Positions 15,737-64,000 of a stretch of DNA of 64,000 nucleotides are shown here, in pieces. The translations under genes and the position numbers were made by a program. Location: the IMG/VR virus record IMGVR_UViG_3300042991_000365, positions 1,540 through 65,539 of that record; one strand, 5' to 3'. The stretch's first letter is position 1; each line of letters begins with the position of its first letter. Under the pieces are notes generated by a model. It had not been told where the DNA came from and made no database searches. It saw only the letters and a program-made list of their open reading frames with translations. Source of the DNA: a virus (Duplodnaviria; Caudoviricetes).

Positions 15737-16360
15737 ATGGAATTAAGATTTAAATATCAAAGAACACCTCATTTAATGTGGTCAAAAGGTTGTACTTCAG
15801 ATGATAAAATGTTATCATCTGTTGAACATTTTTTTGGAAAAGAAATTATAATGACCGAAAAACGTGATGGTGAAAATTCCACGATATATAAAGATTATAT
15901 GCATGCTCGTTCATTAGATTCAGTTGATCATCCATCACGACACTGGCTAAAAAACTTACATGGAACAATGGGGTACAATATTCCAGATGGTTGGAGAGTG
16001 TGTGGTGAAAATCTTTATGCTAAACATAGCCTTCATTATACAAGCTTAAAAAGCTATTTTGAAGTATTCTCAATATGGAATGAAAATAATGTGTGTTTAT
16101 CTTTTGATGATACATTAGAATGGTGTGAATTATTAGGTTTAGTTCATGTTCCAGTTTTATGGAGAGGTATATTTGATGAACAATTATTAAGAAATTATAA
16201 AATTGATACTGAAAAGCAAGAAGGCTATGTAATACAATTAGCAGACAGTTTTAAATATGAAGATTTTAGTACATCGGTAGCTAAATGGGTGAGAGAAAAT
16301 CATGTTACCACAAATAATCATTGGATGTATGAAAAAATAATACCAAATATTTTGGTATAA
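15737..16360 (+). CDS. ATP-dependent RNA ligase family protein
   Basis: KY.RTPHL, TEKRDGEN, GENL, EGYV; TATCTTTG promoter at 15725-15732. Confidence 0.88.
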   Translation: MELRFKYQRTPHLMWSKGCTSDDKMLSSVEHFFGKEIIMTEKRDGENSTIYKDYMHARSLDSVDHPSRHWLKNLHGTMGYNIPDGWRVCGENLYAKHSLHYTSLKSYFEVFSIWNENNVCLSFDDTLEWCELLGLVHVPVLWRGIFDEQLLRNYKIDTEKQEGYVIQLADSFKYEDFSTSVAKWVRENHVTTNNHWMYEKIIPNILV

Positions 16361-29647: not shown

Positions 29648-30169
29648 ATTGTTTAATTTAATGTATTTAATAAAAAATTCATATTTAATATTGCTAAGTC
29701 ATTTTTTATTTTATCATGACTTAAAATATATTTCCATTTATTGCCATTCTTTGTTATATATATTTCATTTGTATCATTGTCTAACCAAGTATCAAAAACC
29801 ATTTTAATATGAAATACATTTTCATTATAAAAAAACATATTATAAATATCTTTAAAATGTTTTTTGTCGTTTTTAGTTATTTTCCAACAAGTTTCCATAA
29901 TTAATATTTTTTACAAAGATAATAATAAATATTAAAACAAATATAATTTTTTAGAATAAATATAAAATGGGAGTAAATAAAAGGATATTAAGTAAGAATT
30001 CAATTAAATATGTTGCTAAAAACAATGATATCGAGTCGTTTATTAATTATTTTAATTCTGATATAATAATGACAAATGATTCTTTTTCATCATATATTTA
30101 TAATAAAATTATAAATGATGATAATATTTTTACTATATTTAAATATTGTAATGAAAATTAAAATTAAAT

Positions 30170-30649
30170 ATGAGAAATGAAGTTAGAATAGATAATTTTT
30201 TAAAAAAAGTGAATATTAATCATTTAATAACAAATATTTGGAAATTACCCGACATTAATGTTCAAAATATTATTAATAATATACCCATCATTAGAGAACA
30301 CTGGATGCATATGCCAGATTTAAGATTTAGTCAAATATTAATTTATTTAGATTATGTACCAAATTTAAGTGGTGGTTGGTTTTATTATGAAGAAGATGAA
30401 ATACTTGAAATCCAAGGCTATAAACCAAGAGAATATACATTTTGGGGTAATTTGTATGACAAAGACAAAAACAAATTACCAGAAGTTAATTATATATTGG
30501 TTAAAGATTTAAATATTGATCATATGCAGAATTTAATTGATGGTAATTGGATAAAAAATGGTACTAAAATTTATAAAATTATATCTGATGAATTAAAAAT
30601 AAGGTCAAGAAGAGAAAAATTGAAAAAAATTAATAAAAAAAGCAGTTAA
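30170..30649 (+). CDS. RxxKLxKI-tail family protein
   Basis: PDLRFSQIL; ends RREKLKKINKKSS. Confidence 0.8.
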   Translation: MRNEVRIDNFLKKVNINHLITNIWKLPDINVQNIINNIPIIREHWMHMPDLRFSQILIYLDYVPNLSGGWFYYEEDEILEIQGYKPREYTFWGNLYDKDKNKLPEVNYILVKDLNIDHMQNLIDGNWIKNGTKIYKIISDELKIRSRREKLKKINKKSS

Positions 30650-30664
30650 TATTAACTGCTTTTT
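30637..30664. terminator. palindromic bidirectional terminator overlapping two stop codons
   Basis: AAAAAGCAGTTAATATTAACTGCTTTTT. Confidence 0.7.
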
Positions 30665-30903
30665 CTTTTATATTTTCTTTTAATTTTATTTAAAACTTTT
30701 TTACTATATTCATTATCTATTCTTATGTAATTTTTTATCCAAGTAAATATTGATATAAATAGTCCAATATTACCAGTTATAATAATGATAAACATAACTG
30801 TATATTTTAATAAACCATTGTCTAATCTTGAATTATTATTGTAAACAATCGCACCAATAATACCAGACAATATCCATATAAATAAAGATAAAATTAATAT
30901 CAT
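30652..30903 (-). CDS. small membrane protein
   Basis: Two hydrophobic helices. Confidence 0.7.
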   Translation of the reverse strand: MILILSLFIWILSGIIGAIVYNNNSRLDNGLLKYTVMFIIIITGNIGLFISIFTWIKNYIRIDNEYSKKVLNKIKRKYKRKSS

Positions 30904-30925
30904 AAAAATTATTTTTTTTTAAGTT

Positions 30926-30964
30926 AAAAAAAAACCTCAATACTCTTTCAAATATTAAGGTTTT
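30926..30964 (-). terminator. intrinsic terminator closing large ncRNA
   Basis: Minus strand AACCTTAATAT-loop-GTATTGAGGTT then U-run. Confidence 0.75.
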
Positions 30965-30969
30965 AATTT

Positions 30970-31870
30970 AATTATGGCTGAGAATAAGCCTCATTGTAGA
31001 ATTCTTTGGAAACCTTATTTTTTAGTTTCTTTTCCACTATCTTTTGGATAGTAAATCCTAACGACGGTTTTTTAAGTTAACCACTCTTTATGTTGTCAAA
31101 TACTCTCTTGTTACTCATAACTTCTTTAAGATGCCTCTCAAACTAAACCTTGCGGGTATAAAGTACTTTCTCAAAAATCTTGCAGGAATTGGGTTCCATA
31201 CAAGGCTGTGAACACTCACAACTAAGTAGTCGCCTTTCTCTGACAACAGGTGAACTCTTTTCCTTTTATTTTATTTTTAATTTTTACATCAATTGTAATT
31301 TAAAAGTAACTAGTTTGTGGATTTATGAAAGTTGCGGTTCACCAATTAGCTTTCCCATCTTTTGAACAGAAAAATACTAAACAACTCTCTGCGATATCCC
31401 TATCACCATATTTTAAGTCAACTAGAACTTGTCAAATGTCTTGGTAAACATTAGTTTACAAAAATAACAGCACCACCTGTACATTATGTAAATGTTCACA
31501 TTACCTTTCGGTTTTAAGCTAACTTTCATATTGAATAACGCAATGATGTGATTGGACGTCACACTTTTTGCAATATATTCTTTGGATTATTCTTGTTGCT
31601 GTTCCCAGCTCACCAAGACTACCCACATAGCCCTGGCATTAAACCACTTTCTCTACAGTGTTACCCTCGATACTTAAGGTTTAACGATATTCCAATTGCC
31701 TGCTTGAGCAAAATATTTCTATTTTGCCGCAAGTGACTTAAACTAATAATCCACTCACTTTATACTACTTTCATAGTTTATTTAAAGACTACAGGCAGCC
31801 TATTTATCTGTTTTCATTAAACATATCATCAACCGAAATTGACTCTACACCTAATTAAAAACAGAGTATA
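30970..31870 (-). ncRNA. candidate giant structured ncRNA (~900 nt, ROOL/GOLLD scale)
   Basis: No credible ORF, raised GC, many hairpins with GNRA loops, own promoters and terminator. Confidence 0.75.
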
Positions 31871-31885
31871 TTTTTTCAAAAAAAA

Positions 31886-31927
31886 TCAAAGAACTTATTA
31901 AAAAATGTTAGCACTTCTGCTAACATT
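31886..31927 (-). promoter_or_regulatory. boxB-like hairpin and boxA-like antitermination element
   Basis: AATGTTAGCA-GAAG-TGCTAACATT followed by AAGTTCTTTGA. Confidence 0.55.
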
Positions 31928-32061
31928 AAATTATAGTGCAAAAATAAAAAAAGTTTTTGTTTTCACCAAATATTTTTTACATTTTTTTCAAAATAATTTT
32001 TAACATTTCTGCTAACATTAAATTATAGTGCAAAAATAAAAAAAGTTTTTGATTTTACAAA
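31915..32061 (-). promoter_or_regulatory. tandem Bacteroidota sigmaA promoters in 45 nt direct repeat
   Basis: Repeat 31915-31959 / 32007-32051; TTTG-N20-TATTTTTG and TTTG-N19-TATTTTTG on minus strand. Confidence 0.8.
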
Positions 32062-32068
32062 AAAAAAA

Positions 32069-32803
32069 TTAAAAAATTTTATCATCTGTTGAAAGTTTTC
32101 CATATTCAATGTTATTATATTCATTTGGATTCATTATTAATTTTTCTAAATAATAATCTGATATTAATCTATTACTTGCATTAGAATCTAATAACGATAC
32201 TTTTTTATCATCTAAATATTTTCCTTTATATGGATACATTTCTATAAAATCATCTTGTTGTTCTATACATGGTGATAAGTGTTCACTTAAATAATATACA
32301 TTTTTATTAATGTATGTAGTAAATCTTATTCTTAAATCGTGATCTTCATATCCATAATTTTTCATTGTTTCAATATAACCACCCAATTTATCGAAATTTT
32401 CTTTAGTCATTGCTATTCTACCAGCATTTTTTTGAAGTGTGGCTATAATAATATTGATATTTCTATTAAAATAATAATTGATGGCTGATATATAATCTTC
32501 TGTAATGTAATTATCACAATCCAAATCTATTGATATTTCACCAGTTGAATATCTATGAGCTATGTTTTTTGCATGAAATCTATCAAAATATTGTTTGTTT
32601 GCAACTTTTATATAAATAATATATTTATCTTCTATTTCTTTGCTAAAATTTTTCACCATGAATTCATGTAAATCATCTTTACTATCATAATTTACTAATA
32701 CTAATTCATAATTATATTTTTTTATTAAAGGTATATTTTTAAATATTGTAGCCTTTAAATATTCACTTCTATTCATGCATGTAGAGCAAAAAGAAAACTT
32801 CAT
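32069..32803 (-). CDS. GT-A fold glycosyltransferase (GT2/GT7-like)
   Basis: LVNYDS, DLDCD, LGGY...YGYEDHDL. Confidence 0.85.
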   Translation of the reverse strand: MKFSFCSTCMNRSEYLKATIFKNIPLIKKYNYELVLVNYDSKDDLHEFMVKNFSKEIEDKYIIYIKVANKQYFDRFHAKNIAHRYSTGEISIDLDCDNYITEDYISAINYYFNRNINIIIATLQKNAGRIAMTKENFDKLGGYIETMKNYGYEDHDLRIRFTTYINKNVYYLSEHLSPCIEQQDDFIEMYPYKGKYLDDKKVSLLDSNASNRLISDYYLEKLIMNPNEYNNIEYGKLSTDDKIF

Positions 32804-32839
32804 ATTATTTAATATTGTTTTATTAGTATATATACAATA

Positions 32840-34192
32840 TGAACTACTATTACACTAAAGATGTAATGGTTTCGTTAAAAAGATTAAACTTTTTAACAAC
32901 ATTAGATAAATCTAATGGCTCGTTCATAGAAGCAAAATGATTTTCAAACCATCTGTGTAGTATATTTATGGCTGAATTTAAATCACGGTCTATAATTATG
33001 GTATCTGACAATTGAACTTTTCTATCTTTCAATTCAATTTTGTTTTTAAATAATTTTCCAGTCAAACAATTTAATTGTGTCGTCCACTTTTCATCAATCT
33101 TTGTTAAATTGGTATTATTTGTTTGACATTTATATTTTAAAAATTCTAAAAACATATTAATATTAGATTTATGAAATGATTTACGAATTGTTTTTTTATT
33201 TTCATTCACACCATCACTTAACATTAATTTTTTGACATTCAGATCACCAATTACAATTGTGTTGTAATTCATATTCACTAATTTTTTACTCTGAATATGT
33301 AGAGTTTGATTTATTTGTTGATTTTTTTTATAATAACATTTATTTAATGTTCTTTTTAATAGTAAATTTCTATTTGAACCTTTTATTGTTTTACTTCTTT
33401 TATTCTGTATTTTCGCTATCTGTTTTTGATAATAATTATTTATTTTCTTTGATTTATTTTTAATAATAACTTCATTGCCTTTATTATCTATACCATGACA
33501 TAATTTATCTAAGCCTAAATCAATAGCAAGAACTCTGGTATTAATTAAAATTTCATCTTTATATTTTATACTATCATCAATAACTATATCACACAACCAT
33601 TTGTTTCTAATAAATTTAATTCTTATCTCTTTAATATTTAATTCATTTAAATTTAAATTTGATTTATATTTAAATGATATTTTATTGATAATTATTATAT
33701 TATTATTTTTAATAATCCAACCTGATTGATTCCAACAGATAGAATGATAATTATTATTTTCTATTTTTCTTGGTGGTCTTGCTGATTTGTCCTTTTTTAT
33801 TAAATTTAAAAATGAACGATATGATCCATATAATTCAGTAGATATAGTTTGAGTTGCTTTTGAATTTAATTTTTTCCAATCTGAAAATTGCTCCTTTAAT
33901 TCGGGAAGCATATTATTTAAATCAAATTTATTAAATATAGTTTTATTTGTTTCATAGGATTGTTGTTGTATATCAAGTAACTTATTCCATATATCTTTTC
34001 TTATGTCAGATAATTTTTGTAATTGATTTATTTGTTCTTTTGATGGAAATAATCTTATTTGATATGTCTTCAATTTTTATACAATATTTTTTATAATACT
34101 ATATATAAATTAAATGGTGTTATATATTCTAAATTTTTAAAAGTTTTTTGTTAAATTTATCAAAATATAATAAAGATGCAATTATTTTTTTA
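32840..34192 (-). mobile_element. non-autonomous IS200/IS605-family element (solo tnpB)
   Basis: Right end GAAAC-stem-TCTTTAG-stem-GTAGTTCA at 32840-32874; degenerate left end near 34143-34192. Confidence 0.7.
32850..34073 (-). CDS. tnpB: TnpB RNA-guided endonuclease
   Basis: KTYQIRLFP, AIDLG, IVIGDL, DRDLNSAINI. Confidence 0.9.
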   Translation of the reverse strand: MKTYQIRLFPSKEQINQLQKLSDIRKDIWNKLLDIQQQSYETNKTIFNKFDLNNMLPELKEQFSDWKKLNSKATQTISTELYGSYRSFLNLIKKDKSARPPRKIENNNYHSICWNQSGWIIKNNNIIIINKISFKYKSNLNLNELNIKEIRIKFIRNKWLCDIVIDDSIKYKDEILINTRVLAIDLGLDKLCHGIDNKGNEVIIKNKSKKINNYYQKQIAKIQNKRSKTIKGSNRNLLLKRTLNKCYYKKNQQINQTLHIQSKKLVNMNYNTIVIGDLNVKKLMLSDGVNENKKTIRKSFHKSNINMFLEFLKYKCQTNNTNLTKIDEKWTTQLNCLTGKLFKNKIELKDRKVQLSDTIIIDRDLNSAINILHRWFENHFASMNEPLDLSNVVKKFNLFNETITSLV

Positions 34193-48236: not shown

Positions 48237-50450
48237 ATGAAAACATTAGAAAAAAACGACATTAAAGCCAAATTAACAGAAATGGCTGAAATGAGTGAAA
48301 AACTCAAAAATTTACAAAACCAATTAGAAGTTGACTATTTTGGTGAAGATAGTGAAACTATTGATGATTTGGAATTGGACGAAAGAGTAAATAATTTTTA
48401 CGATTTCATTAATAGTGATTTTGAATTACACAGTTTATTGGAACAAATCAGATTAAATTTAGATGCATTAGTATGAGAAAATTAACACCTGAAGATATTG
48501 AAATTGTTAATTTTATAGTTAAAAAAGAAGCCAGAAAAGAAGCTATTGAAATACTTGAAAAATGTCCAATTAGAAATTATAATGAATTTATGAATTATCA
48601 TAATATGGACAAAGACAATGTTTGTTGTTTGGTTTTAGATTTTACTAAAGATGAATTGGTAAAATGTAACGAAATGAAGCAAAATAAAAAGGATTTTTTT
48701 GGTAATGTTTTTTAAAAATAAAAATATGGAAAGTACAGGTCCAGGTCACTATTGTTATGGTTGTAAAGAATTTTTTCACGATTCAAATATGTACGTACAT
48801 ACACACAAAGGTTGTAAAGGACAAAAAAGTTTAGGCATTTGTGTAGATAGTAAAGAATTTGGAAAATATCATCCATACAATTTGGAAAATAAAAGCAATT
48901 GGGATTTAATTCAAATTATACAAGAATTATCTGAAGATGTAAAAAAACTTTCTAAAAACATAGAAAAACATGGTAAATCTAATGATTATTTGATATAAAA
49001 TTAATACATATGAAAAGTGCAGAAGACTTACTCAAAGAAAAAGGTATTACAGAAAGATCTAAATTTCATAATTATAATTACTTATATAAAACTTTTGTAG
49101 AAATTATTAATAAATTACAAAAAGAAAATGAGAACAAAAATGATTAAATCTTTTGTGATAATAATAATAGTTCTAATTATAATACTTGGTAATTTTACAA
49201 TTACATATTATACTAATAATAAGAACGAATATAAATTAGAATATAATGGTTTATTATGGGTAACACTAGATTATTGGACTATCAAAAAATATAAAAGTTC
49301 CGATACACCTATGAAATTAATTAAATTTTCACGAAATTTAAAAGGAAATGATAAATATAAAATTGTATAATATTAAATAAAAATGAATAAATTAGAATGG
49401 TGGGGATATAAACACACATCAGGTAACTATATACCTAAAAGATATTTTAGTAAACTTGATATTGAAGAAGCACAAGAAAGTCCTTTTTGTGAAATTGCAG
49501 TTGGTCCATTTTTAGCTGAAAATTGGGAAGATGCTTTAAAACAATTAAAAAAATTAATTGATGAATTATGAAATATAAAAAACTTTTAAAAATCCATCAG
49601 AAAGCAAAAAGAATTGTAGATTCTGATTTAGAATGGGATGATAAATTTGATAAAATATTTTCTAGAAAAATAGCTAGAAAAGTAAAATTTGAATGGTATG
49701 ATCCAGACACATCATATCAAGAAGATGTGGAAGCTTTTATGAGAGAATTTGATGAATATATGAAAAAACAGGAAATTATATCAAAGCAAATTAATATAGA
49801 TTAAAATAAAATATTAACTTTGTATAAAAATTAAAAAATAAAATTATGAAAAATTTATTACTATTATTAGTTATTCTGATAGTTTCATCATGTGGTTATA
49901 CAACGCCAAAAATTGGTAGTGAAACAGAGCCATTTATTGTTATAGAAATACAACATTATAATGAAAAACAATCTAGATATATTGGTAGTCCTAATGCAGA
50001 TGATAATGAAATTTCTGTTTTTTGTCCTGCTATAATTTTACCAACAGGAATGTTTAATATGGGTGATACAATATTGCCACAAGATTTTATAAAATGAAAT
50101 TAATTAAGAAAATATTTTATTATTTTTGGGAAGAAACAACAGTAAAAGTTGGTAATTCCGCTTTTGAAATGGGTGGATTTATTATATCATTGGGAATTAC
50201 TATATTTATTTTATGGTCATTAGGATTACTTGATAAATAAAAATATTATATGGAAAAAATTAAAAAACTTTGGTTACAATATAAAAATTCTATAAAGTGG
50301 GAAGTTACACTATTCTGGTATATTATATTTAATTTGGGTGTTCTTATTTCAGAACCTAAATTTTATAAATTTATAGCAATATTTATATTTTTCATATACT
50401 TAACACTATATGTTTGGTTTAAAAAACATTATATGGATAAATATGAATAA
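48237..50450 (+). other. run of about ten short co-oriented hypothetical ORFs incl. lipoprotein 49846..50097
   Basis: Tightly packed ORFs; no recognisable domains. Confidence 0.65.
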
Positions 50451-63206: not shown

Positions 63207-63400
63207 AATTATTAATCGAAGTGGAATACTATGCCATTGAAACAGAAATAAATGTCTGTGCTGGGCTAAAAAAATGCTAGTTCTAAGTAGCGGTCTATCC
63301 AAGAAAGATAAATGTCAGCTTGCCATTGTACTAATTAAATGCCAGTAATAATTTTAAAAAACAACTTTCATTTTTTTATATATAAAAATAAAAAAAAATT

Positions 63401-63635: not shown

Positions 63636-63833
63636 AAAAATATTTGGTAGATTAAAAAATACTCCATATCTTTGTACAGAAATTGTAAATAATTTGAAAG
63701 GTAAAAAAAATAAATGATTGTCTTGAAATAAAGAAACAAGTTTATTAATACAAACTCAACTCTGTTTACAATTTTTAAAAAAAATACAAAAATATTTGGT
63801 AGATTAAAAAATACTCCATATCTTTGTACAGAA
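63636..63833 (+). promoter_or_regulatory. tandem duplicated Bacteroidota sigmaA promoters
   Basis: ~46 nt exact repeat, period 152, each TTTG-N20-TATCTTTG. Confidence 0.85.
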
Positions 63834-64000
63834 TTTAAAAAGTAAAACAAAATGGAAAAGAAATCGGTTGTGGATGATACATTTAAAGAATTAGATACAA
63901 AACTCTCAATTCTTAATAAAGAAACAGTTGATTGGATTAAACAAAAGATGCTTTATCATATAAATGAAGCATATGAAAGAGGAAAAATAGAAAAATAGAA

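What the first reader, a model, noticed from the sequence alone, without database searches (positions are those of the whole stretch)
30926..32061. ~900 nt non-coding RNA candidate expressed like an rRNA operon
Seen: the longest ORF-free stretch in the window, visibly GC-richer, with minus-strand hairpins (CC-GAAA-GG, CC-GCAA-GG, GCAAAAT/ATTTTGC, CTATC/GATAG, GGCT/AGCC at the 3' end). It has two consensus promoters in a 45 nt direct repeat, a 10 bp hairpin then AAGTTCTTTGA, and a U-tailed terminator. Known: rrn leaders use tandem promoters plus boxB/boxA Nus antitermination; ROOL and GOLLD are giant phage-associated structured RNAs of unknown function. Inference: a highly expressed giant ncRNA, either an expanded ROOL/GOLLD relative or a new class, that borrows host antitermination.
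Basis: partly seen in the sequence, partly recalled or inferred. Interest (0 to 1): 0.82.

Follow-up and report, generated by a model that had tools for sequence, protein, structure and literature searches.

The report
Phage GOLLD RNA with rRNA-style leader
The gene-free stretch encodes a GOLLD RNA, a known giant cage-forming phage RNA, and it starts with the same promoter, hairpin and boxA signal that bacteria place before their ribosomal RNA genes, so the phage probably borrows the host's rRNA transcription machinery to make it.

Summary
The ORF-free, GC-richer stretch is real. It is not a new RNA class. Window 30975-31389 (-) matches Rfam GOLLD (RF02032) end to end (278.9 bits). Window 31390-31800 is the matching 5' domain, conserved with compensatory changes in 8 other phage loci (72 of 122 predicted pairs). 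So it is an ~825-nt GOLLD RNA of a large uncultured phage.

The leader reading holds up. Both copies of a 45-nt exact repeat carry a Bacteroidota-type promoter word, followed by a 10-bp hairpin and then GTTCTTTGA.
- That word is not significant in this window alone.
- It sits at the same place in all 12 close relatives with enough upstream sequence and in 56 of 63 other confirmed phage GOLLD loci.
- The same word stands before 16S genes in 78 of 105 Bacteroidales leaders and 19 of 24 phylum-sampled leaders.

Most likely the phage uses host rRNA-type (boxA/Nus) termination-resistant transcription to make its cage-forming RNA. No experiment shows this.

I found no paper linking GOLLD and boxA. 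Weinberg 2009 could not be read. This scan has reported the same arrangement before on other phage DNA.

The parts
32031..32061 (-). Upstream promoter-like word P1 (TTTG-N19-TATTTTTG, then CACTATAAT), inside repeat copy 31992-32062
   Evidence: Regex match; repeat; 21-mer found only twice in the window. The start site is not mapped.
31939..31970 (-). Downstream promoter-like word P2 (TTTG-N20-TATTTTTG, then CACTATAAT), inside repeat copy 31900-31970, 92 nt after P1
   Evidence: In 46 of 56 distinct phage GOLLD leaders a TAnnTTTG word ends 15-60 nt before the boxA word, and 39 of 56 have two or more within 300 nt.
31904..31927 (-). Leader hairpin, 10 bp with a GAAG loop, followed by U6 (boxB-like position; also terminator-like by pattern)
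   Evidence: A hairpin of >=4 bp lies within 32 nt before the boxA word in 45 of 47 distinct leaders, with 25 different stem sequences. The P1 copy lacks the perfect 3' arm.
31886..31894 (-). boxA-like word GTTCTTTGA
   Evidence: position. It is conserved in 13 of 13 sequences of this GOLLD subtype that have upstream DNA, the window included, and in 56 of 63 other confirmed GOLLD loci. It is identical to the word in 16S leaders of Bacteroidota.
31807..31865 (-). Variable leader stem-loop between boxA and the GOLLD core
   Evidence: Fold (z -1.48, not significant on its own). The relatives have unrelated hairpins here. Exact-match RNA-library contigs reach up to 31855-31865.
31390..31800 (-). 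GOLLD 5' domain
   Evidence: Alignments A1 and A2: 122 predicted pairs, 72 with a change on both sides, in 9 sequences. nhmmer matches across both domains to L084, L086, L078, L071 and L002.
30975..31389 (-). GOLLD 3' domain (the part modelled by Rfam RF02032)
   Evidence: cmscan 278.9 bits, E 1.6e-78, model positions 1-416 of 416; the same hit in the whole record.
30926..30964 (-). Intrinsic terminator: 15-bp A/U-rich stem, GAAA loop, U9
   Evidence: -17.8 kcal/mol, z -4.33, 0 of 200 shuffles fold as well. The pattern scan missed it because the stem has fewer than 3 G-C pairs.

Best explanation
Window 30975-31800 (minus strand) encodes a GOLLD RNA. GOLLD is the known ~800-nt phage RNA that assembles into a 14-subunit RNA cage and has no known function. 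The carrier is a fragment of a large, very A+T-rich uncultured phage whose host is probably a member of Bacteroidota.

The gene stands alone as its own transcription unit of about 1.0-1.1 kb:
- two host-type promoters in a tandem repeat;
- a 5' hairpin;
- the word GTTCTTTGA, which is the boxA word of the host phylum's rRNA leaders;
- a variable stem-loop;
- the two GOLLD domains;
- a U-tailed terminator.

Proposed mechanism, inferred and not shown: host RNA polymerase starts at P1 or P2. The nascent boxA RNA is bound by NusB-NusE(S10), which with NusA, NusG and accessory factors converts the polymerase into the rRNA-type antitermination complex. That complex carries the untranslated 1-kb transcript past Rho and pause sites and may help it fold as it is made. 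Transcription then stops at the strong intrinsic terminator.

Shown here: the identity of the RNA, the anatomy, the conservation of the leader, and its identity with host rRNA leaders. Inferred: the start sites, Nus binding, resistance to Rho, and the host phylum.
For: RNA identity:
- Rfam GOLLD full-length hit.
- The 5' domain is homologous to 8 other phage loci, with 72 of 122 pairs showing compensatory change.
- 12 of the 13 relatives scanned are GOLLD over Rfam's cut-off, and so is L002.

Phage carrier:
- The window lies in an IMG/VR virus record of 65.5 kb with a CheckV completeness estimate of 9.
- The only hit among 50,697 phage records is a 634,780-bp uncultured phage.

Leader conservation:
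- GTTCTTT[GA]A lies between a promoter word and the GOLLD core in 13 of 13 sequences of this subtype with upstream DNA. These give 9 distinct leader versions whose flanks differ.
- Among 83 distinct GOLLD-like loci from a second scan, the exact word on the GOLLD strand falls 52 times within -700 to -501 of the anchor and 8 times within -1200 to -701. It falls nowhere else within +-2.5 kb. The opposite strand shows 0-5 per bin, scattered.
- 56 of 63 nhmmer-confirmed loci with enough upstream DNA carry it.
- A covarying hairpin precedes it, and promoter words, often two, precede that.

Host rRNA leaders:
- Exact GTTCTTTGA lies 127-349 nt before the 16S primer site in 78 of 105 Bacteroidales leaders, 0 of 105 on the opposite strand, with a background of 3 per 506 kb.
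- It is present in 19 of 24 leaders sampled across the phylum.
- These leaders show the same promoter-hairpin-word order.

Promoter type: the full Bacteroidota-type promoter word occurs 15 times in the window, against 5.1 +- 2.2 in shuffles.

RNA: contigs from RNA libraries of 3 studies carry this RNA. Several pieces show 0 differences and one 576-nt piece shows 4.

Established knowledge:
- boxA bound by NusB/NusE nucleates the rrn antitermination complex, which resists Rho and aids rRNA folding (abstracts of PMC4807359, PMC6614797, PMC10250234 in the listing).
- T7 uses a boxA behind its early promoters (passages of PMC3709561).
Against: - No transcription start, 3' end or transcript level was measured. 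The RNA evidence is contigs only, which cannot show ends, strand or abundance.
- GTTCTTTGA is not significant in this window by itself.
- 7 of 63 confirmed GOLLD loci lack the word within the searched range. Two of these have a one-letter variant at the expected place.
- 26 of 105 Bacteroidales leaders and 4 of 24 phylum leaders lack the searched forms.
- The word is also the rRNA boxA of other phyla as I recall it (Firmicutes), so it does not by itself name the host.
- The hairpin here is followed by U6 and scores as terminator-like. That could mean attenuation before boxA rather than a boxB-like role.
- Nus-factor action on boxA has not, to my knowledge, been tested in Bacteroidota.
- No boxC equivalent was defined.
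- No phage NusG was found, though only this 65.5-kb fragment of the phage was searched.
Confidence: 0.68

Rival explanations
1. The conserved word is a processing or structural signal of the GOLLD precursor rather than a Nus-factor site. It could be an RNase cleavage site, or part of a leader-trailer helix as in pre-rRNA. Its likeness to rRNA leaders would then reflect shared maturation enzymes.
For: Exact-match RNA-library contigs reach only to 31855-31865, downstream of the word, which would fit removal of the leader. A 17-nt, 76% complementary pair joins 31853-31869 to 30952-30968 (I13). In rRNA operons the leader also serves processing (abstract of PMC10250234, listing).
Against: Contig ends are not RNA ends. 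The leader-trailer complementarity is A/U-rich, imperfect, and competes with the terminator stem. The invariant 9-mer is single-stranded in the folds and identical to the host boxA word, which fits protein recognition better than base pairing. The two roles are not exclusive.
Confidence: 0.12
2. The boxA-tagged RNA acts as a decoy. An abundant phage transcript carrying the host boxA titrates NusB/NusE away from host rRNA operons and so damps host ribosome synthesis.
For: The word is identical to the host rRNA leader word. There are tandem promoters. The RNA is present in RNA libraries of 3 studies.
Against: No measure of abundance was made. The word is always placed in front of a long structured RNA or a tRNA array, which is where antitermination in cis is useful. 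A decoy would not need a fixed position behind a promoter and hairpin.
Confidence: 0.06
3. In this window the hairpin plus U6 at 31927-31904 is chiefly an intrinsic terminator or attenuator. It would end read-through from the upstream glycosyltransferase gene and from P1, so that only P2 feeds the GOLLD RNA.
For: The pattern scan calls it terminator-like: 10 pairs, 3 G-C, then TTTTTAAT. The upstream gene ends at 32069 with no other terminator called before it. The P1 copy of the repeat lacks the perfect 3' arm.
Against: In the other leaders the hairpin is 5-7 bp and is followed by AAAC or similar, not by a U run. The U run may therefore be incidental in DNA that is 77% A+T. The fold z-score is only -1.9. 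This reading is compatible with the main explanation.
Confidence: 0.1
4. It is a new class of giant RNA, or an expanded ROOL relative.
For: None after the Rfam search.
Against: There is a full-length GOLLD hit and no ROOL, OLE, intron, RNase P or tmRNA hit at gathering thresholds in the whole window. The length of about 825 nt is typical of GOLLD (passages of the Kretsch preprint).
Confidence: 0.01

Closest known systems
GOLLD RNA (Rfam RF02032; Weinberg et al. 2009, recalled and not readable here; cryo-EM of the 14-mer cage in Kretsch et al., bioRxiv 10.1101/2024.12.08.627333, passages read)
   Same: Full-length match to the conserved 3' domain. A separate, less conserved 5' domain of about 410 nt. 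Total length about 825 nt. Phage-borne.
   Different: No tRNA gene anywhere in the 64-kb window, whereas GOLLD is 'often near tRNA islands' and the relatives sit in tRNA arrays. Here it is a solitary unit with its own promoters and terminator, in DNA of 23% G+C. Cage formation was not tested.
Bacterial rrn operon leader (tandem promoters, boxB-boxA-boxC) and the rrn antitermination complex of NusA, NusB, NusE, NusG, S4 and SuhB (PMC4807359, PMC6614797, PMC6614801, PMC10250234: abstracts in the listing)
   Same: Tandem promoters 92 nt apart, then a hairpin, then a word identical to the one in 16S leaders of Bacteroidota, all ahead of a long untranslated structured RNA.
   Different: The cargo is a phage RNA, not rRNA. 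No boxC was defined and no spacer boxA is present. The gamma-proteobacterial consensus GYTCTTTAANA (passage of PMC5725501) differs at two positions, as do the Bacteroidota rRNA leaders themselves. Factor binding was not tested.
Phage use of host boxA: T7 early region (PMC3709561, passages, citing Savalia 2010) and lambda nut sites (recalled)
   Same: A phage places a host-type boxA behind strong host-polymerase promoters to get termination-resistant transcription.
   Different: In T7 and lambda the transcripts are mRNAs, and lambda needs its own N protein. Here the transcript is a non-coding cage-forming RNA and no phage factor is evident in the fragment.
ROOL RNA (PMC5737381, passages)
   Same: A large ornate phage-associated RNA, near tRNAs, that forms a cage.
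   Different: No ROOL hit in the window at Rfam's threshold. Sequence and structure are unrelated.

Membership tests
GOLLD RNA (RF02032) | Match to the covariance model of the conserved 3' domain above the curated score | tested here: met
   278.9 bits against a cut-off of 150, model positions 1-416 of 416, not truncated.
GOLLD RNA (RF02032) | A separate, less conserved, multi-stem 5' domain, giving about 800 nt in all | tested here: met
   31390-31800 aligns with 8 other loci. 122 predicted pairs, 72 with changes on both sides. Total about 825 nt. The stem numbering of the published structure was not mapped.
GOLLD RNA (RF02032) | Located in phages or prophages, often beside tRNA genes | tested here: inconclusive
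   Phage record: yes. tRNA genes: 0 in the 64-kb window, though the relatives lie in tRNA arrays. Nearness to tRNAs is frequent, not obligatory.
GOLLD RNA (RF02032) | Assembly into a 14-mer RNA cage | not testable with these tools
   Known for GOLLD env-38 only.
rrn-type boxA antitermination leader | boxA word matching that of the host's rRNA leaders | tested here: met
   GTTCTTTGA at 31894-31886. The same 9-mer is in 78 of 105 Bacteroidales and 19 of 24 phylum-sampled 16S leaders. The host phylum is inferred, not known.
rrn-type boxA antitermination leader | Position in the transcribed leader, behind the promoter(s) and ahead of the structured RNA | tested here: inconclusive
   The order promoter word, hairpin, boxA, RNA holds here and in 46 of 56 other leaders. 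No start site has been mapped.
rrn-type boxA antitermination leader | Hairpin (boxB-like) just upstream of boxA | tested here: met
   A 10-bp hairpin ends 9 nt before the word. 45 of 47 distinct leaders have a hairpin, with 25 different stems. Hairpins of >=5 bp occur in 43 of 47, against 278 of 940 shuffles.
rrn-type boxA antitermination leader | Binding of NusB-NusE and resistance to Rho-dependent termination | not testable with these tools
   No experiment. Inference from the rrn complex (listing).
ROOL, OLE, group I/II introns, RNase P, tmRNA | Match above Rfam's curated score | tested here: not met
   The only match in the window at gathering thresholds is GOLLD.

The most novel reading that the evidence does not exclude
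Phage GOLLD genes in general are built as miniature rRNA operons: tandem host promoters, covarying hairpin, host boxA. The cage-forming RNA would then be made by the host's rRNA antitermination complex, which also works as a co-transcriptional RNA chaperone. In this reading, correct folding and 14-mer assembly of GOLLD depend on that complex. GOLLD synthesis is tied to, and competes with, host rRNA synthesis for Nus factors. This would be the first clue to how and when the RNA is made.
Probability: 0.3. Interest if true: 0.65.

Novelty: new variant of a known kind. Interest (0 to 1): 0.48.

Why it matters
GOLLD is one of the largest bacterial or phage non-coding RNAs. Its cage structure is solved, but its function and biogenesis are unknown.

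If the RNA is made from an rRNA-type leader, three things follow:
- It is transcribed by host polymerase under rRNA-like control.
- An untranslated 1-kb phage transcript needs protection from Rho.
- GOLLD folding may rely on the chaperone activity of the antitermination complex.

Each of these can be tested with a boxA point mutant in a Bacteroidota reporter. This window is a clean test case because the GOLLD gene stands alone, with its own promoters and terminator and no tRNA genes around it.

The RNA itself is an ordinary new member of a known family.

Tried and rejected
- Rfam at gathering thresholds gave no family other than GOLLD in the window.
- The sigma-70 promoter scan was no better than shuffles (14 found against 14.1 expected). 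It listed no minus-strand site at the repeat.
- The first 14-mer scan of viral contigs gave mostly chance hits. Only 4 of the 113 loci it returned matched the window's RNA by nhmmer; the search ran over all 115 loci then held and also hit L001 (the window's own record) and L002.
- The subtype pattern found nothing in the species-representative genomes. No prophage copy, and so no named host, was obtained.
- Paper searches for the motif as a text string returned only primers and siRNAs.
- Searches for boxA + antitermination + Bacteroides, GOLLD + antiterminat (4 papers) and GOLLD + boxA (4 papers, judged unrelated from their titles: plant papers, probably an author-name match) gave nothing on a GOLLD leader. 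In PMC12990946 the antiterminator mentions concern T-box RNAs. I therefore write 'not found in the searched library', not 'unpublished'. Weinberg 2009 and Morgado 2020 are not held, and supplementary alignments are closed and might show the leader.
- The second GTTCTTTGA (15757-15765, minus) lies antisense inside a 207-aa ORF and is taken as chance.
- The leader-trailer stem has only A/U-rich, 73-76% complementary arms and was not pursued.
- There is no NusG domain in the 65.5-kb record. A fragment cannot show absence.
- Of 73 distinct pattern hits with enough upstream DNA, 10 were not confirmed as GOLLD by nhmmer. They were dropped from the 56-of-63 count; one of the 10 carries GTTCTTTAA.
- My aragorn parse returned no tRNA for any locus and is not used.
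- Reads: no contig of the four RNA-library runs lay on the flanking genes (30000-30900, 32130-33000), apart from short low-complexity pieces in X9. Absence of cover in contigs proves nothing. Shares of words in runs that I did not lay are not used as evidence of habitat or expression.
- Structure prediction, complex prediction, the protein atlas and the large protein searches were not used. No protein question was decisive.
Full report
**What is there**

The minus strand of window 30904-32068 is the longest stretch of the window without an ORF of 80 aa or more (1165 nt). It is also the G+C-richest part: 34.3% for 30975-31800 against 23.0% overall. The ORF-free claim depends on the threshold. 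At 60 aa two short plus-strand ORFs intrude. At 100 aa a longer gap lies at 48477-50409.

**Identity of the RNA**

A scan of the whole window against Rfam 15 at curated thresholds gives one match. GOLLD (RF02032) matches 30975-31389 on the minus strand at 278.9 bits (cut-off 150), E 1.6e-78, model positions 1-416 of 416, not truncated. The same single hit is found in the whole 65.5-kb record.

The Rfam model covers only the conserved 3' domain. The published structure has a 5' region (residues 1-420) and a 3' region (421-833), and the 5' region is less conserved (passages of bioRxiv 10.1101/2024.12.08.627333).

The 5' domain is present here too:
- nhmmer with 30930-31935 finds five other loci that match across both halves.
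- A specific 27-nt pattern from the 5' half finds 13 viral contigs. Of these, 12 are GOLLD over Rfam's cut-off; the 13th locus ends inside the RNA.
- L002, from the 634,780-bp uncultured phage LR745206.1, is also GOLLD.
- In an alignment of 9 distinct sequences the 5' domain gives 122 predicted pairs, 72 of them with at least one change on both sides.

Homology starts at about 31800 (GGCTGCC...) and ends at 30975, about 825 nt. This is a typical GOLLD, neither expanded nor a new class.

**The carrier**

The window is nearly all of an IMG/VR virus record with a CheckV completeness estimate of 9, so it is probably a fragment of a very large phage. No tRNA gene lies in the 64 kb. The relatives have GOLLD inside tRNA arrays, two of them with a tmRNA gene nearby.

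The neighbours are:
- upstream on the same strand, a family-2 glycosyltransferase (32069-32803) and a TnpB/IS605 OrfB-like protein (32850-34073);
- downstream, an 83-aa protein without a significant family match.

**The leader in this window**

Two copies of a 71-nt repeat (89% identical, 45 nt exact, 92 nt apart) each contain TTTG-N19/20-TATTTTTG followed by CACTATAAT. The sigma-70 scan finds no minus-strand promoter there, because there is no -35 hexamer. The word fits the Bacteroidota -33/-7 promoter consensus (TTTG ... TAnnTTTG), which I recall and did not take from a call. That full word occurs 15 times in the window, against 5.1 +- 2.2 (maximum 12) in 100 shuffles.

Behind the second copy come:
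- a 10-bp hairpin (31927-31904);
- U6;
- AAGTTCTTTGA (31894-31886 for GTTCTTTGA);
- a possible stem-loop (31865-31807, z -1.48);
- the GOLLD core.

Behind the RNA lies a terminator with a 15-bp stem and U9 (30964-30926, z -4.33, 0 of 200 shuffles).

**Is the boxA-like word more than chance?**

Not within this window. It occurs 2 times against 0.85 expected, and 22 of 100 shuffles reach 2. The other copy is antisense inside an ORF. The case rests on comparison.

(a) Close relatives. Of the 15 sequences of this subtype, the window included, two are cut too short. All 13 others have GTTCTTTGA (12) or GTTCTTTAA (1) between a promoter word or tRNA and the GOLLD core. These make 9 distinct leader versions with otherwise divergent flanks.

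(b) A wider sample. 118 were read, giving 83 distinct cores.
- The exact word on the GOLLD strand falls 42 times in the bin -700 to -601 and 10 times in -600 to -501.
- It falls 8 times in -1200 to -701, and never elsewhere within +-2.5 kb.
- The opposite strand shows only scattered counts of 0-5 per bin.
- Of the 73 loci with at least 1300 nt upstream, 63 are confirmed as GOLLD-like by nhmmer. 56 of these carry the word and 7 do not.
- Two of the 7 have a one-letter variant at the expected place.

(c) Surroundings of the word.
- A hairpin precedes the word in 45 of 47 distinct leaders, with 25 different stem sequences. Hairpins of 5 bp or more occur in 43 of 47, against 278 of 940 shuffles.
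- A TAnnTTTG word ends 15-60 nt upstream in 46 of 56 distinct leaders.
- 39 of 56 have two or more such words within 300 nt, with a second peak about 100-110 nt further up.

The tandem-promoter, hairpin, word order of this window is therefore the family's usual leader.

**Is it the host's rRNA boxA?**

A scan of species-representative genomes with a Bacteroidales 16S primer gave 120 loci, mostly Prevotella, Segatella and Bacteroides.
- Of 105 sites with at least 350 nt upstream, 78 have exact GTTCTTTGA 127-349 nt before the primer site on the rRNA strand.
- None has it on the other strand, and the background is 3 per 506 kb further upstream.
- One more has GCTCTTTGA, and several of the remaining 26 show GATCTTTGA.
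- The order in these leaders is TAnnTTTG promoter word, short hairpin, AAAGA-GTTCTTTGA-AAGATT.

In a sample drawn evenly across the phylum of one of these genomes, 54 of 101 genomes gave a 16S match and 30 loci were fetched. Of these, 24 had at least 300 nt upstream. 19 of the 24 carry the exact word and 1 carries GATCTTTGA.

The gamma-proteobacterial consensus in print is GYTCTTTAANA (passage of PMC5725501). The G at position 8 is the form seen here in Bacteroidota. I recall that Firmicutes use GTTCTTTGA as well, so the word alone does not name the host. The promoter words do that, weakly.

**RNA evidence**

13 of the 24 listed runs are RNA libraries that hold part of the stretch. I laid four of them, from 3 studies. 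Their contigs lie between 30976 and 31865.
- Several pieces have 0 differences: 31756-31855, 31756-31865 and 31643-31784.
- One 576-nt piece has 4 differences.
- One 719-nt piece from a relative has 37 differences.
- The relatives' contigs turn unlike the window at 30976 and at 31794-31800, which are the two ends of the GOLLD core.

Contigs cannot show ends, strand or level. This shows only that the RNA and close relatives are present in RNA libraries.

**Mechanism**

Established knowledge: boxA RNA bound by NusB-NusE nucleates a modified elongation complex. That complex resists Rho and assists rRNA folding (abstracts of PMC4807359, PMC6614797, PMC6614801, PMC10250234 and PMC8632103 in the listing). 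T7 places a boxA behind its early host-polymerase promoters (passages of PMC3709561).

An untranslated 1-kb transcript is a natural Rho target. The most economical reading is therefore that the phage copies the host's rRNA leader to get its GOLLD RNA made in full, and perhaps folded. I put this at about 0.68. Nus binding, the start sites and the host phylum are inferred.

The rivals are:
- a processing signal (0.12);
- a Nus-factor decoy (0.06);
- for this window's hairpin-U6, an attenuator role that is compatible with the main reading (0.10).

**Novelty**

The RNA is a new member of a known family. In the searchable library I found no paper that links GOLLD with boxA or antitermination. The original description and the supplementary alignments could not be read.

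Earlier reports of this same scan describe the same leader before GOLLD on other phage DNA. I reached it before reading them and re-tested it here on my own loci.

What is particular to this window:
- a solitary GOLLD unit without any tRNA gene in 64 kb;
- a longer (10-bp) leader hairpin followed by a U run;
- DNA of 23% G+C.

Noticed in passing
window 32850-34073 (-): A 407-aa TnpB/IS605 OrfB-like protein (Pfam OrfB_IS605, HTH_OrfB_IS605, Cas12f1-like TNB; PHROG 506, E 4e-56) lies two genes upstream of the GOLLD unit. Its guide-RNA region, if any, would overlap the start of the glycosyltransferase gene.
   Followed up: no
window 63643-63674 and 63795-63826 (+): An exact tandem pair of Bacteroidota-type promoter words (TTTGGTAGATTAAAAAATACTCCATATCTTTG), 152 nt apart, ahead of an ORF that starts at 63853 near the end of the record. 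It resembles the promoter repeats in L002.
   Followed up: partly
window 63207-63340 (+): A G+C-richer, ORF-poor segment just after a gene end. It looks as if it could be a small structured RNA. There is no Rfam match at gathering thresholds.
   Followed up: no
window 48477-50409: The longest stretch of the window without an ORF of 100 aa or more (1933 nt). ORFs of 60-99 aa cover it. Not examined.
   Followed up: no
L002 1860-2450 (LR745206.1): In the 634-kb phage the boxA word occurs twice on the GOLLD strand. One copy lies before the first tRNA of the array and one, after a hairpin, lies between a tRNA and GOLLD. Three promoter-like repeats lie in between.
   Followed up: partly
L117 6934-7316 and L120 1276-1681: Two relatives carry a tmRNA gene within about 1.5 kb of their GOLLD gene, inside the tRNA array.
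   Followed up: no
L116 / L118 / L122, about 170 nt between promoter word and boxA word: These three near-identical loci have a long, G+C-richer insertion between the promoter word and the boxA word, unlike the short hairpin of most leaders.
   Followed up: no
window 31673-31755 (-): RNA-library contigs of all four runs laid (3 studies) join 31673/31680 to 31755, skipping or replacing 74-81 nt. This is the variable hairpin region of the 5' domain in alignment A2, so the contigs probably come from relatives with a different stem there.
   Followed up: partly
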